The position numbers were made by a program, and so were the translations under genes. Under the pieces are notes generated by a model. It was not told the DNA's origin. It did no database searches and worked only from the letters and a program-made list of their open reading frames with translations. Below are positions 1,543 through 4,386 of a stretch of 4,386 nucleotides of DNA, piece by piece (position 1 is the first letter of the stretch; every line of letters starts with the position of its first letter). Source of the stretch: a virus. Taxonomy: Duplodnaviria > Heunggongvirae > Uroviricota > Caudoviricetes. Where the stretch lies: IMG/VR virus record IMGVR_UViG_2534681998_000004; one strand, given 5' to 3'.

Positions 1543-1841
1543 GGGTGAGGGTTTATATCGCCGGTCCGATGACGGGATATGAAAATTTTAACCGCGAGGC
1601 ATTTCACAAAACGGAAGAGGTGCTGAAACGGGAAGGGCATACCGTTTTAAACCCGGCAGTACTTCCGGACGGGCTGACTCAGCCACACTACATGGATATT
1701 TGCATGGCAATGCTCCGTTGCGTGGATGCGGTTTACATGCTGAAAGGCTGGCAGCAGTCGGCAGGTGCAGGGGCTGAGCTGGCACTGGAGGAGAAACCGG
1801 GCCATGCGGTGATTTTTCAGGAGGTGGGCAGTGAATATTGA
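1539..1841 (+). CDS. DUF4406-like / nucleoside 2-deoxyribosyltransferase-like small protein (100 aa)
   Basis: GTG start at 1539 overlapping the upstream stop (GTGA), with AGGAGG at 1526-1531 at 7-nt spacing. The N-terminal VYIAGPMTG...N...AF motif followed by V-NPA is, from memory, characteristic of the DUF4406 / deoxyribosyltransferase-like fold. Confidence 0.6.
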   Translation: MRVRVYIAGPMTGYENFNREAFHKTEEVLKREGHTVLNPAVLPDGLTQPHYMDICMAMLRCVDAVYMLKGWQQSAGAGAELALEEKPGHAVIFQEVGSEY

Positions 1842-3038: not shown

Positions 3039-3596
3039 ATGACCACTATTACCAAAGATCGACTGCTGACAATCCAGCATTGGCGCGAAACATACGGACC
3101 GGGTAGCAACGTTGTGCTTCCAGCAGAAGAAGCGGAAGAGCTGGCACGGATTGCGCTGGCATCACTGGCAGCAGTATCGGATGAACGAGCAGCCTATGAA
3201 TTATTTATGGAGAAGCGTTTCGGAGAATCTGTAGATCGCCGCAGAGCAAAAAATGGCGATAGAGAATACATGGCATGGGATATGGCGCTTGGCTGGATTA
3301 TCTGGTGTCACCGCGCCGCCATGCTTCAGGCTGGAAACTTTCGGGAAAATAAGGGTTCGTCAACCAATAATTTTCGGATAATCTCGGAAACGTCAACCAA
3401 CTCTCCGGCAATCCCTGATGAGGTGTTGTCCGCAATCCTGAAGGTCGCCAGGCTTCGTGCAGATTTCGATGCTTCTGAAGTGGACAGGCGAGGTATCGGT
3501 AGTTGTCTGGATGAGGCCGAGCAAGAACTTATCGTTACCATTAACGAATACGCCAGTCAGATCGCAGTAGAAGCGACACAGGGGGAGAACCAATGA
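3039..3596 (+). CDS. Hypothetical prophage protein (185 aa)
   Basis: ATG at 3039 starts 2 nt after the upstream stop, with AAGGTGA at 3025-3031 at 7-nt spacing. Long ORF with balanced composition; stop TGA 3594-3596. Confidence 0.6.
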   Translation: MTTITKDRLLTIQHWRETYGPGSNVVLPAEEAEELARIALASLAAVSDERAAYELFMEKRFGESVDRRRAKNGDREYMAWDMALGWIIWCHRAAMLQAGNFRENKGSSTNNFRIISETSTNSPAIPDEVLSAILKVARLRADFDASEVDRRGIGSCLDEAEQELIVTINEYASQIAVEATQGENQ

Positions 3597-3670
3597 GCCG
3601 GCCAGATGCATTTGCAGGCGTTGCTATAGCTATTGCTTTTCTAGTATATGTTATTTGTCGGTGGGGGTAA
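3593..3670 (+). CDS. Candidate 25-aa hydrophobic peptide (MSRPDAFAGVAIAIAFLVYVICRWG), not in the ORF track
   Basis: ATG 3593 overlaps the upstream stop as ATGA; GGGGGAGA at 3581-3588 gives about 4-nt spacing; stop TAA 3668-3670. Single predicted TM-like segment. Too short for statistical support; hand-translated. Confidence 0.3.
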   Translation: MSRPDAFAGVAIAIAFLVYVICRWG

Positions 3671-3820: not shown

Positions 3821-3836
3821 TATGGGAATTCCCATA
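3821..3836. repeat. 16-bp perfect palindrome TATGGGAATTCCCATA (possible operator or RNA stem-loop)
   Basis: Exact reverse-complement symmetry read directly from the sequence; lies between the 34-aa ORF stop and the candidate hok promoter. Confidence 0.5.
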
Positions 3837-3850
3837 TCGGGCAAAACGGT

Positions 3851-3878
3851 TTGCTGTAAAGCGAGAGTTAAGTAGAAT
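3851..3878 (+). promoter_or_regulatory. Candidate sigma70 promoter for the hok-like mRNA (-35 TTGCTG 3851-3856, 16-nt spacer, -10 TAGAAT 3873-3878)
   Basis: The -10 matches TATAAT at 5 of 6 positions, the -35 at 3 of 6. The predicted start near 3885 coincides with the 5' element that is complementary to the mRNA 3' end, giving a transcript of about 420 nt, as expected for hok-family mRNAs. Confidence 0.4.
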
Positions 3879-3881
3879 TGC

Positions 3882-3896
3882 TGCGGGTGCTTGAGG
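3882..3896 (+). promoter_or_regulatory. hok mRNA 5'-end element complementary to the 3' end (fold-back inhibition, 5' partner)
   Basis: TGCGGGTGCTTGAGG (3882-3896) pairs with CCTCAACGCACCCGCA (4259-4274) over 15 bp with one bulged nucleotide; complementarity checked by hand. Confidence 0.5.
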
Positions 3897-3930
3897 CTGT
3901 CTGCCTCGGGCATGCCACCGTAAGGCAGAC

Positions 3931-4005
3931 AGAGAAAAGCCCCAGTTAACATTACGCGTCCTGCAAGACGCTTAACATTAATCTGAGGCCCAATCTATGC
4001 TTCAC
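3931..4005 (-). ncRNA. sok: Candidate Sok-like antisense RNA (antitoxin of a type I TA system); ends approximate
   Basis: Minus-strand candidate promoter: -35 TTGCCT (+4040..4035), 17-nt spacer, -10 TAACCT (+4017..4012), predicting a start near +4004. The transcript would be antisense to the mok start codon (3997-3999) and its SD (3985-3988), as in plasmid R1 hok/sok. No canonical terminator found; a U-rich run (complement of +3931-3939) is a possible 3' end. Confidence 0.3.
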
Positions 4006-4209
4006 AAACGTAGGTTAGCCTCTTACGCGCCGAAAGGCAAGGAGAAGCAGGTTATGAAGCAGCAAAAGGCGATGTTAATCGCCCTGATCGTCATCTGTTT
4101 AACCGTCATAGTGACGGCACTGGTAACGAGGAAAGACCTCTGCGAGGTACGAATCCGAACCGGCCAGACGGAGGTCGCTGTCTTCACAGCTTACGAACCT
4201 GAGGAGTAA
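3997..4209 (+). CDS. mok: Mok-like in-frame upstream reading frame (70 aa) that contains hok; analogous to the MokC arrangement as I recall it
   Basis: ATG 3997 with GAGG at 3985-3988 at 8-nt spacing; same frame as hok and the same stop. Whether it is translated as a separate product is inferred from the hok-family paradigm. Confidence 0.5.
   Translation: MLHKRRLASYAPKGKEKQVMKQQKAMLIALIVICLTVIVTALVTRKDLCEVRIRTGQTEVAVFTAYEPEE
4054..4209 (+). CDS. hok: Hok/Gef-family type I toxin (51 aa, small membrane peptide)
   Basis: ATG 4054 with AAGGAG at 4039-4044 at 9-nt spacing; stop TAA 4207-4209. The product MKQQKAMLIALIVICLTVIVTALVTRKDLCEVRIRTGQTEVAVFTAYEPEE has the Hok signature (TM helix, then TRK-x-LCE-x-R and EVAAF/EVAVF-x-AYE). 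From memory it is very close to E. coli HokD (RelF) and HokC (Gef). Confidence 0.85.
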   Translation: MKQQKAMLIALIVICLTVIVTALVTRKDLCEVRIRTGQTEVAVFTAYEPEE

Positions 4210-4258
4210 GAGACCAGGCGGGGGAGAAATCCCTCGCCACCGCTGATGTGTCAGGCAT

Positions 4259-4274
4259 CCTCAACGCACCCGCA
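4259..4274 (+). promoter_or_regulatory. hok mRNA 3' element complementary to the 5' end (fold-back inhibition, 3' partner)
   Basis: CCTCAACGCACCCGCA is complementary to 3882-3896 and sits immediately upstream of the terminator hairpin, as expected for the 3' partner of hok mRNAs. Confidence 0.5.
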
Positions 4275-4277
4275 CTT

Positions 4278-4304
4278 AACCCGCTTCGGCGGGTTTTGTT
4301 TTTT
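4278..4304 (+). terminator. Rho-independent terminator of the hok-like transcript
   Basis: Stem AACCCGC (4278-4284), loop TTCG, stem GCGGGTT (4289-4295), followed by TTGTTTTTT (4296-4304). Confidence 0.8.
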
Positions 4305-4386
4305 CCTGGCATTCTGGTTTACAATTCGCACGCCAGCCTGAACAACTGGCACCTGCTGCGCCAGCAGAGACAACCGATGGCGCACG

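What the first reader, a model, noticed from the sequence alone, without database searches (positions are those of the whole stretch)
3897..3932. Strong stem-loop at the 5' end of the hok-like leader
A perfect 9-bp inverted repeat (CTGTCTGCC / GGCAGACAG) with an 18-nt loop lies immediately after the 5' complementary element. hok leaders carry conserved structural elements that gate mok/hok translation, and this hairpin is a candidate for one. On the minus strand it could equally affect the 3' end of the antisense RNA.
Basis: seen in the sequence. Interest (0 to 1): 0.35.

Follow-up and report, generated by a model that had tools for sequence, protein, structure and literature searches.

The report
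Known hok mRNA 5' leader hairpin
The hairpin is real and conserved, but it is an already-described part of the RNA switch that controls when the Hok toxin of a prophage hok/sok toxin-antitoxin locus is made, so it is an ordinary, known element.

Summary
It is perfect for 10 bp. Alone it is weak evidence, since 0.30 such repeats are expected per window.

It lies at about +13 to +48 of a complete hok/mok/sok locus in a lambdoid prophage. The Hok is HokD/HokW-type. Rfam RF01794 scores 114.9 bits against a cut-off of 59.

Across 76 distinct hok leaders aligned without reference to structure:
- The 9-bp core is paired in 96% of cells.
- Five of the nine pairs show compensatory double changes.
- RNAalifold predicts exactly these nine pairs from 16 full-length mRNAs, together with the 5'-3' (tac/fbi) pairing.
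- G·U wobbles place the constraint on the hok-sense RNA (96% paired, against 87% on the minus strand).

Its 5' arm is shared with a conserved, mutually exclusive metastable hairpin (3887-3913, loop CUGUCUG). The stem is therefore the upper part of the published hok "tac-stem". It persists in the inert full-length mRNA. After 3' trimming it lets the 5' end pair with the anti-Shine-Dalgarno box, which opens mok/hok translation and Sok binding.

A role at the antisense RNA's 3' end is not supported. Verdict: already known, low interest.

The parts
3851..3878 (+). Putative hok promoter: -35 TTGCTG at 3851-3856, 16-nt spacer, -10 TAGAAT at 3873-3878. The start is inferred at 3885/3886.
   Evidence: Read from the sequence. 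The start is placed by homology with R1 hok +1, GGCGCUUGAGG; that numbering checks against G4/C5/U6 and A70/G71/C72 of PMC9841398. The consensus scan did not call it. Inferred.
3885..3896 (+). tac, the translational activator element at the 5' end of hok mRNA. It pairs with fbi in the full-length RNA. Its 5' part (3885-3892) pairs with ucb in the truncated RNA.
   Evidence: I3, I8; tac/fbi pairs with U-A to C-G covariation in 6 of 16 sequences. Nomenclature from PMC9841398.
3887..3913 (+). Metastable hairpin I: 3887-3897 pairs with 3903-3913, with loop UGUCU inside the CUGUCUG (CUNUNUG) motif. It is mutually exclusive with the stable stem.
   Evidence: It is the MFE of nascent prefixes up to about 52 nt, and its core pairs have probability 0.91 in the 48-nt prefix. 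Covariation: 97.6% paired for the 5-bp core and 91.3% for 11 bp. The CUNUNUG consensus comes from PMC1524914.
3897..3932 (+). The finding itself: stable stem-loop S. The 9-10 bp stem is 3897-3906 paired with 3923-3932. It is the upper part of the tac-stem.
3937..3943 (+). ucb, the upstream complementary box (anti-SD), AAGCCCC. It pairs with tac in the truncated RNA and with the mok SD region in the full-length RNA.
   Evidence: (helix 1, 96.9% paired).
3934..4005 (-). Sok-like antisense RNA, about 72 nt: 5' end near 4005, terminator hairpin, then U-tract GGGGCUUUUCUCU ending at about 3931-3935.
   Evidence: Coordinates mapped from the sokW annotation in VT2-Sakai (L001 1591-1661 minus strand; 92% identical locus). 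Minus-strand fold, z = -5.5. Inferred by homology.
4012..4040 (-). Putative sok promoter: -35 TTGCCT (4040 to 4035), 17-nt spacer, -10 TAACCT (4017 to 4012).
   Evidence: Read from the sequence. Its position is homologous to the R1 sok promoter, which is my own recall. Inferred.
3985..3988 (+). mok Shine-Dalgarno GAGG.
   Evidence: Sequence. It pairs with dcb in the Rfam consensus and in the fold of the truncated RNA.
3997..4209 (+). mok-like reading frame (70 aa) overlapping hok.
   Evidence: phrog_251 'MokW-like host killing', E = 7.7e-33.
4018..4022 (+). dcb, the downstream complementary box, GCCUC.
4054..4209 (+). hok toxin gene (51 aa, HokD/HokW-type), with SD AAGGAG at 4039-4044.
   Evidence: Identical proteins carry PF01848 and are named Hok family toxin or HokD.
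4217..4238 (+). G+C-rich stem-loop expected to form the 3' end of the processed (truncated) mRNA.
   Evidence: columns 370-387, with covariation. Role taken from PMC9841398. Inferred.
4252..4274 (+). fbi, the fold-back inhibitory element. The core 4259-4271 pairs with tac.
   Evidence: (I3, I8).
4278..4305 (+). Intrinsic terminator of hok mRNA.

Best explanation
The stem-loop at 3897-3932 is the conserved stable hairpin near the 5' end (about +13 to +48) of the hok toxin mRNA. The mRNA belongs to a complete, prophage-borne hok/mok/sok type I toxin-antitoxin locus of the HokD/HokW type. The hairpin is the apical part of the tac-stem in the published hok folding pathway. The pathway has three stages.

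1. Transcription. The 5' arm of the stem is first captured in a fast-forming metastable hairpin (3887-3913) that also sequesters tac. The stable stem and the tac/ucb helix therefore cannot form, and ucb is left free to mask the mok Shine-Dalgarno.

2. Full-length RNA. Once the 3' end is made, fbi (4259-4271) pairs with tac (3885-3896). This frees 3897-3907, which pairs with 3923-3932 to give the stable stem, abutting the tac/fbi helix. This RNA is inert.

3. Truncated RNA. After 3' exonucleolytic trimming removes fbi, the pre-formed stem holds tac next to ucb (3937-3943). The two pair, ucb releases the mok SD, and the leader becomes translatable and can bind Sok.

What is shown here:
- the stem exists;
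- it is conserved, and it covaries on the sense strand;
- the alternative metastable helix covaries as well;
- the predicted folds of each RNA form match the model.

What is inferred from the literature on plasmid R1 and from thermodynamic prediction: the order of events, the 3' processing, and the clamp role of the stem.
For: - Rfam RF01794 matches 3885-4059 on the plus strand at 114.9 bits (gathering cut-off 59). The stem lies inside the model's first helix.
- The same model finds the element in VT2-Sakai hokW, in R1/F-type hok and in an SrnB-like locus, with compensating differences in the stem.
- In the structure-blind MAFFT alignment of 76 distinct leaders, 92.0% of cells pair, against at most 62.4% when partners are slid. 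Nine pairs carry double changes. No shuffle of 500 reached the covariation score.
- Within the 9-bp core, pair 3899/3930 occurs as A-U 39, U-A 24, G·U 7 and G-C 3. Pair 3901/3928 occurs as C-G 55, U·G 16 and U-A 5. Pair 3904/3925 occurs as C-G 35, U·G 31, U-A 6 and G-C 1.
- RNAalifold on 16 full-length mRNAs predicts exactly these nine pairs plus tac/fbi.
- Strand asymmetry: 96.2% paired on the plus strand, 87.1% on the minus strand.
- The metastable hairpin is supported by covariation and carries the published CUNUNUG loop consensus.
- In the 48-nt nascent prefix the metastable hairpin has pair probability 0.91 and the stable stem about 0.09 (0.07-0.09). In the 59-nt leader and the full-length RNA the stem is at about 1.0, and in the truncated RNA at 0.96-0.99.
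- tac/ucb is worth -10.0 kcal/mol on top of the stem and -5.9 without it. Forbidding the stem costs the full-length fold 11 kcal/mol.
- The predicted fold of the truncated RNA equals the Rfam consensus: tac/ucb, the stem, the Sok-target hairpin and mok SD/dcb.
- The published model of the tac/fbi, tac/ucb and metastable structures is described in PMC9841398, PMC6733600 and PMC1524914.
- Every fetched hok copy without a model hit lacks an intact leader. The leader is replaced by relE or by an insertion sequence, or it has decayed. Two short contigs, L015 and L029, were not examined.
Against: - There are no experimental data for this locus. The transcript ends, the 3' processing and the toxicity are all unmeasured.
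- The clamp role rests on nearest-neighbour energies, not on kinetics.
- The sequences are related, so the shuffle controls overstate significance. The slid-partner control and the variety of pair types are the stronger evidence.
- The two innermost pairs of the Rfam helix (3906/3923 and 3907/3922) are poorly conserved: 24 and 39 of 76 cells are unpaired.
- The stem might instead, or also, simply stabilise the 5' end.
Confidence: 0.85

Rival explanations
1. The hairpin acts on the minus strand, as part of the 3' end of Sok antisense RNA: a terminator, a read-through stop or a stabiliser.
For: The minus-strand 36-mer also folds well (-20.5 kcal/mol, z = -4.0). The Sok U-tract template (3931-3939) touches the last two nucleotides of the 3' arm.
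Against: Seventy-eight G·U cells in the 9-bp core become C·A mismatches on the minus strand. That gives 87.1% paired against 96.2%, and only 22 of 76 sequences keep all nine pairs against 54 of 76. The structure model scores 71.7 bits on the plus strand and 14.5 bits on the minus strand. Sok has its own terminator hairpin and U-tract before this point. No U-run follows the minus-strand hairpin. The annotated sokW ends at the window equivalent of 3935.
Confidence: 0.04
2. It is a DNA-level palindrome, such as a protein operator next to the hok promoter or a cruciform, and not an RNA structure.
For: It lies about 20 bp downstream of the putative -10 element.
Against: Both arms change together so that pairing is kept, not sequence: A-U, U-A, G-C and G·U all occur at one position. 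Loop length ranges from about 12 to about 37 nt. G·U pairs are tolerated on one strand only. These are signatures of RNA helices, not of protein-binding palindromes.
Confidence: 0.02
3. It is a chance inverted repeat with no function.
For: A perfect repeat of at least 9 bp with a short loop is expected 0.30 times per window of this composition, and 21.5% of shuffles contain one.
Against: It is conserved at the same position in 76 distinct leaders, from Escherichia, Kluyvera, Photorhabdus, Serratia, Pantoea, Mixta, Ewingella, Buttiauxella and plasmids, with compensatory changes.
Confidence: 0.01
4. The stem is real but serves mainly as a 5' stabiliser or passive spacer of hok mRNA. It protects against 5'-end-dependent decay and has no active role in the translational switch.
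For: 5'-proximal hairpins commonly stabilise bacterial mRNAs (general knowledge), and hok mRNA is described in the R1 literature as very stable (my own recall). The stem is present in both the full-length and the truncated predicted folds.
Against: Its 5' arm is shared base for base with the covarying metastable hairpin, which is hard to explain for a mere stabiliser. The stem improves tac/ucb closure by about 4 kcal/mol. In R1, the G64T loss-of-function mutant maps, by my numbering, to the closing pair of this stem; that mutant keeps the truncated mRNA but loses Hok protein, which points to translation rather than stability.
Confidence: 0.08

Closest known systems
hok/sok of plasmid R1 (parB): the tac-stem of hok mRNA and metastable hairpin I. 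Sources not read here: Gultyaev, Franch and Gerdes 1997; Nagel et al. 1999; Moller-Jensen et al. 2001. Summaries read: PMC9841398, PMC6733600, PMC1524914.
   Same: The position in the leader is the same: R1 C12-C20 with G56-G64 corresponds to window 3897-3905 with 3924-3932. The flanks are the same: tac GG(C/U)GCUUGAGG and ucb A(A/U)AGCCCC. The alternative small 5' hairpin with a CUNUNUG loop is the same. So are the tac/fbi, tac/ucb and mok SD/dcb pairings.
   Different: The loop is 16-18 nt here and about 35 nt in R1, so there is little room for R1's second metastable hairpin. Instead, metastable hairpin I is predicted to extend to 11 bp and to cover almost all of tac. The Hok protein is only about 43% identical to the R1/F-type Hok. 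The locus sits in a prophage, not a plasmid.
hokW/mokW/sokW of Stx phages 933W and VT2-Sakai, and the HokD-type loci of lambdoid and P1-like phages.
   Same: The locus is 92% identical over about 440 bp and has the same architecture, with annotated sokW, mokW and hokW. The hairpin is the same, with one compensated pair: G-C here and A-U in hokW.
   Different: Only point differences. The window's exact leader sequence also occurs in other genomes and viral contigs (for example L154), and one E. coli plasmid record is 99.8% identical.
Chromosomal hokD (relF) of E. coli K-12, downstream of relBE.
   Same: The Hok protein is identical (100%) in the relE-adjacent copies L013 and L018.
   Different: Copies next to relE lack the whole leader. 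Homology starts just upstream of the hok SD, so the hairpin, tac, ucb and sok are all absent.
aapA/IsoA type I toxin-antitoxin systems of Helicobacter pylori (PMC6733600).
   Same: The logic is the same: successive metastable hairpins, 5'-3' end pairing, and activation by 3' trimming.
   Different: The sequence and the toxin are unrelated. The metastable hairpins there mask the SD directly.

Membership tests
[quoted passage not shown] | Small Hok toxin ORF of about 50 aa with the Hok/Gef domain. | tested here: met
   ORF 4054-4209, 51 aa. Identical database proteins carry PF01848 and are named Hok family toxin or HokD. phrog_251, E = 7.7e-33.
[quoted passage not shown] | Overlapping upstream mok reading frame with its own SD. 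| tested here: met
   ORF 3997-4209, 70 aa, with GAGG at 3985-3988.
[quoted passage not shown] | Leader RNA matches the curated covariance model above its gathering score. | tested here: met
   114.9 bits against 59, E = 1.4e-26, full length 1-157.
[quoted passage not shown] | Long-distance 5'-3' pairing (tac/fbi) in the full-length mRNA. | tested here: met
   3885-3896 pairs with 4259-4271. RNAalifold recovers it, with U-A to C-G covariation in 6 of 16 sequences.
[quoted passage not shown] | Alternative tac/ucb and mok SD/dcb pairings in the 3'-truncated mRNA. | tested here: met
   The predicted MFE of 3885-4242 shows both. The tac/ucb helix is 96.9% paired across 76 leaders. This is a prediction only; no processing data exist.
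[quoted passage not shown] | Metastable 5' hairpin with a CUNUNUG loop, mutually exclusive with the tac-stem. | tested here: met
   The CUGUCUG loop is present. The hairpin is the MFE of nascent prefixes and is 97.6% or 91.3% paired with compensatory changes. The consensus comes from PMC1524914.
[quoted passage not shown] | Antisense Sok RNA with its own promoter inside mok and a terminator, complementary to the leader. | tested here: inconclusive
   The minus strand has a terminator-like hairpin plus U-tract and promoter-like hexamers. The homologous sokW is annotated in VT2-Sakai. There is no transcript evidence, and the consensus scan did not call the promoter.
[quoted passage not shown] | Toxicity of Hok, repression by Sok, and post-segregational killing or prophage maintenance. 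| not testable with these tools
   Needs experiments.

The most novel reading that the evidence does not exclude
Stem integrity may be an active requirement for translational activation, not just scaffolding. By my numbering, the unexplained R1 suppressor G64T of PMC9841398 (truncated mRNA present, Hok protein lost, 'no mechanism') hits the closing pair of this very stem: C12-G64, which corresponds to window C3897-G3932. In the predicted ensemble of truncated R1 mRNA, G64U drops the stem from 0.63 to 0.02 and tac/ucb from 0.18 to 0.00.

In the short-loop HokD/HokW clade, the stem and an 11-bp metastable hairpin that covers nearly all of tac are predicted to be isoenergetic, at -22.5 kcal/mol each. 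This clade would then run the switch with one long metastable hairpin instead of R1's two short ones.
Probability: 0.35. Interest if true: 0.3.

Novelty: already known. Interest (0 to 1): 0.1.

Why it matters
It matters little beyond annotation. The result confirms that this prophage carries a complete, apparently functional hok/mok/sok module with every published RNA switch element intact. That contrasts with K-12-type hokD copies and IS-disrupted copies, which have lost the leader.

It also gives a clean worked example of one 11-nt segment (3897-3907) under double selection from two mutually exclusive helices.

The one possibly useful by-product is a candidate explanation for an unexplained R1 suppressor mutation, G64T, which appears to break the closing pair of this stem.

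Tried and rejected
- **Protein search.** The search with Hok returned only near-identical sequences and gave no diversity. Diversity came instead from tblastn on plasmids and from pattern scans of genome and viral contigs.
- **Regular-expression anchors.** These missed the Kluyvera, Photorhabdus and Serratia leaders. A covariance model recovered them.
- **First MAFFT alignment.** It shifted the SrnB-like sequence by one column because of a trailing base, so it was redone.
- **Papers not held.** Nagel et al. 1999 (PMC1369862) is not in the library, and the supplementary tables of PMC9841398 are not held. The full list of "unknown" 5' UTR suppressors therefore could not be mapped onto the stem.
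- **Explanations rejected.** The minus-strand (Sok 3' end), DNA-palindrome and chance explanations were considered and rejected, for the reasons given under the rival explanations.
- **Sub-threshold Rfam hits.** The isrK and rsmX hits in the 3' UTR fall below their gathering scores and were not pursued.

Full report
**Observation**

The window reads CTGTCTGCC at 3897-3905 and GGCAGACAG at 3924-3932, with 18 nt between them. The perfect complementarity continues one more pair (T3906-A3923). An imperfect extension gives 21-nt arms, 3886-3906 and 3923-3943 (I1). As RNA, the 36-mer folds at -21.2 kcal/mol, z = -5.3.

Taken alone, the repeat is not remarkable. Perfect inverted repeats of at least 9 bp with a 3-20 nt loop occur 0.30 times per dinucleotide-shuffled window, and 21.5% of shuffles have at least one. 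Whether it means anything has to be settled by context and comparison.

**Context**

The window is a lambdoid-prophage early region:
- a P-like helicase loader at its left end;
- a run of small phage ORFs;
- a complete hok-family locus at its right end.

The locus has a 51-aa Hok ORF at 4054-4209 and an overlapping 70-aa mok frame from 3997. Identical proteins in the databases carry PF01848 and are named Hok family toxin or HokD.

Rfam RF01794 matches 3885-4059 on the plus strand at 114.9 bits (gathering score 59, E = 1.4e-26). The finding's stem lies inside the model's first helix.

The nearest annotated relatives are HokD/HokW-type loci of Stx and other lambdoid or P1-like phages, at 88-96% identity. 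VT2-Sakai annotates sokW, mokW and hokW at the homologous place. One E. coli plasmid record is 99.8% identical.

By homology with R1 the transcript starts at 3885/3886. The R1 numbering checks against G4, C5, U6 and A70, G71, C72 of PMC9841398. The stem therefore occupies about +13 to +48.

The other parts of the switch are all present:
- The 5' 12 nt (3885-3896, tac) pair with 4259-4271 (fbi).
- An intrinsic terminator follows at 4278-4305.
- AAGCCCC at 3937-3943 is the ucb, or anti-SD.
- GAGG at 3985-3988 is the mok SD.
- GCCUC at 4018-4022 is the dcb.
- On the minus strand, a Sok-like RNA runs from about 4005 to about 3934. It ends in a long hairpin followed by GGGGCUUUUCUCU.

**Comparative test**

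I fetched 168 related loci:
- plasmid hok copies;
- one scan of species-representative genomes;
- one scan of viral contigs.

A covariance model of the 5' domain found the element in Escherichia, Kluyvera, Citrobacter, Photorhabdus, Serratia, Pantoea, Mixta, Ewingella, Buttiauxella and other enterobacterial loci.

To avoid fitting the alignment to the structure, I aligned the 76 distinct 5' domains with MAFFT alone and then counted pairs:
- 92.0% of cells form standard pairs, against at most 62.4% when the 3' partners are slid by 1-3 columns.
- Nine pairs have changes on both sides.
- No shuffle of 500 reaches the observed covariation score.

For example:

| Pair | Pair types observed (number of sequences) |
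|---|---|
| 3899/3930 | A-U 39, U-A 24, G·U 7, G-C 3 |
| 3901/3928 | C-G 55, U·G 16, U-A 5 |
| 3904/3925 | C-G 35, U·G 31, U-A 6, G-C 1 |

The smaller 20-sequence alignment gives the same picture.

RNAalifold on 16 full-length mRNAs, with no structure supplied, predicts exactly these nine pairs. It also predicts the tac/fbi pairing, which itself covaries (U-A to C-G in 6 of 16).

The two further inner pairs of the Rfam helix (3906/3923 and 3907/3922) are poorly conserved.

**Which strand**

G·U pairs on the plus strand become C·A mismatches on the minus strand.

| Measure | Plus strand | Minus strand |
|---|---|---|
| Core cells paired | 96.2% | 87.1% |
| Sequences with all nine pairs formed | 54 of 76 | 22 of 76 |
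| Covariance model score | 71.7 bits | 14.5 bits |

The Sok terminator and its U-tract lie before the minus-strand copy of the hairpin, and no U-run follows that copy. The constraint is therefore on hok mRNA. It is not on Sok and not on the DNA.

**A second, mutually exclusive helix**

The 5' arm of the stem is also the loop and 3' arm of a small 5' hairpin. GAGGC (3893-3897) pairs with GCCUC (3903-3907) around UGUCU. This matches the published CUNUNUG loop consensus of hok "metastable hairpin I" (PMC1524914).

That helix covaries as well. It is 97.6% paired, and four of its five pairs show double changes.

In this clade it extends to 11 bp (3887-3897 with 3903-3913) and is 91.3% paired, including a U-A to C-G switch at 3888/3912.

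Position 3904 pairs with 3896 in one helix and with 3925 in the other, and it varies consistently with both. This reproduces the "coupled covariations" reported for the hok family by Gultyaev et al. 1997. That paper is cited in PMC6733600 and PMC1524914; I did not read it.

**How it most likely works**

The predicted folds of this sequence follow the published pathway.

1. *Nascent RNA.* Prefixes up to about 52 nt fold into the metastable hairpin. In the 48-nt prefix its pairs have probability 0.91, against about 0.09 (0.07-0.09) for the stable stem. The two states are isoenergetic at -22.5 kcal/mol.

2. *Full-length RNA (3885-4300).* The fold has tac/fbi with the stable stem abutting it. Stem pair probability is about 1.0, and forbidding the stem costs 11 kcal/mol.

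3. *3'-truncated RNA (3885-4242).* The fold has tac/ucb, the stem, the Sok-target hairpin and mok SD/dcb. This is the Rfam consensus structure and the published translatable form.

The tac/ucb helix is worth -10.0 kcal/mol when it closes on the stem and only -5.9 without it.

My reading is that the stem is the upper part of the tac-stem. It is blocked during transcription by the metastable hairpin. It is formed and parked on the tac/fbi helix in the inert mRNA. After 3' trimming it acts as a clamp that lets tac capture ucb, which frees the mok SD and exposes the Sok target.

The structures and their conservation are shown here. The temporal order, the 3' processing and the clamp role are inferred from the R1 literature (PMC9841398, PMC6733600) and from thermodynamic prediction.

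**Supporting natural experiments**

Every fetched hok copy in which the covariance model found nothing has lost its leader. Two short contigs, L015 and L029, were not examined.
- relE-adjacent, K-12-type hokD copies: L008, L013, L018, L035, L041, L060, L120 and L124.
- Copies with an insertion sequence just upstream of the hok SD or inside the leader: L002, L006, L007, L165 and L080.
- One visibly decayed leader: L012.

**A link to published mutagenesis**

With R1 numbering, the stem is C12-C20 paired with G56-G64. PMC9841398 reports G64T as a loss-of-function substitution. The truncated mRNA is still present but Hok protein is lost, and the authors could propose no mechanism.

G64 is the closing pair of this stem and corresponds to window G3932. 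In the predicted ensemble of R1 nucleotides 1-361, G64U lowers the stem from 0.63 to 0.02 and tac/ucb from 0.18 to 0.00. This is only a computational suggestion. The supplementary list of other unexplained positions was not available.

**Verdict**

The main interpretation, a conserved hok-leader element involved in gating translation, is right. The minus-strand alternative is not supported.

The element, its partner structures and their covariation are already described for the hok family. This locus is a close relative of the annotated hokW/sokW. Novelty: already known. Interest: low.

Noticed in passing
window 3885-4059 (+); L001 1541-1715 (+) against the annotated sokW at 1591-1661 (-): The Rfam family RF01794, named 'sok antitoxin', matches the hok-sense strand, from the mRNA 5' end to the hok start codon. 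Its consensus structure is that of the truncated, active hok leader. Only its central third is complementary to the antisense Sok RNA. Annotations made with this model would therefore put 'sok' on the wrong strand and make it too long.
   Followed up: partly
R1-type locus L083 543-617 (R1 nt 1-75); window 3897/3932: The unexplained loss-of-function substitution G64T of PMC9841398 maps to the closing C12-G64 pair of this stem. In the RNAfold ensemble of truncated R1 mRNA, G64U removes the stem and tac/ucb.
   Followed up: partly
window 3593-3670 and 3655/3706-3810 (+): Two short ORFs encode very hydrophobic peptides: a 25-aa one (MSRPDAFAGVAIAIAFLVYVICRWG) and a 34-51 aa one ending ...AVIAVVGVYCLVVFLMERLGN. 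They lie just upstream of the hok promoter and may be small phage membrane proteins.
   Followed up: no
window 3821-3836: A perfect 16-nt palindrome, TATGGGAATTCCCATA, lies between the small ORFs and the hok promoter (I7). No U-run follows it and its function is unknown.
   Followed up: no
window 4218-4299: A sub-threshold Rfam hit to isrK (27.2 bits, gathering score 50) covers the hok 3' UTR, including the 3' stem-loop, fbi and the terminator. It is probably a resemblance of a terminator plus hairpin.
   Followed up: no
L008, L013, L018, L035, L041, L060, L120, L124; L002, L006, L007, L165, L080; L012: Many hok copies with an intact toxin ORF have lost the whole regulatory leader. Some are fused downstream of relE (K-12-type hokD). 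Others are cut by an insertion sequence just upstream of the hok SD or inside the leader. L012 keeps a visibly decayed leader.
   Followed up: partly
L019, L029, L036, L081, L082, L083: E. coli or plasmid-type hok loci appear in assemblies labelled Veillonella, Acinetobacter, Xanthomonas, Ferruginibacter, Streptomyces and Oscillibacter. Most are on short contigs, which suggests contamination of those assemblies.
   Followed up: no
L051 557-609 and 1186-1238; L066 545-601 and 1133-1189: Two hok leaders lie about 600 bp apart in Photorhabdus temperata and Serratia fonticola, which indicates tandemly duplicated hok loci.
   Followed up: no
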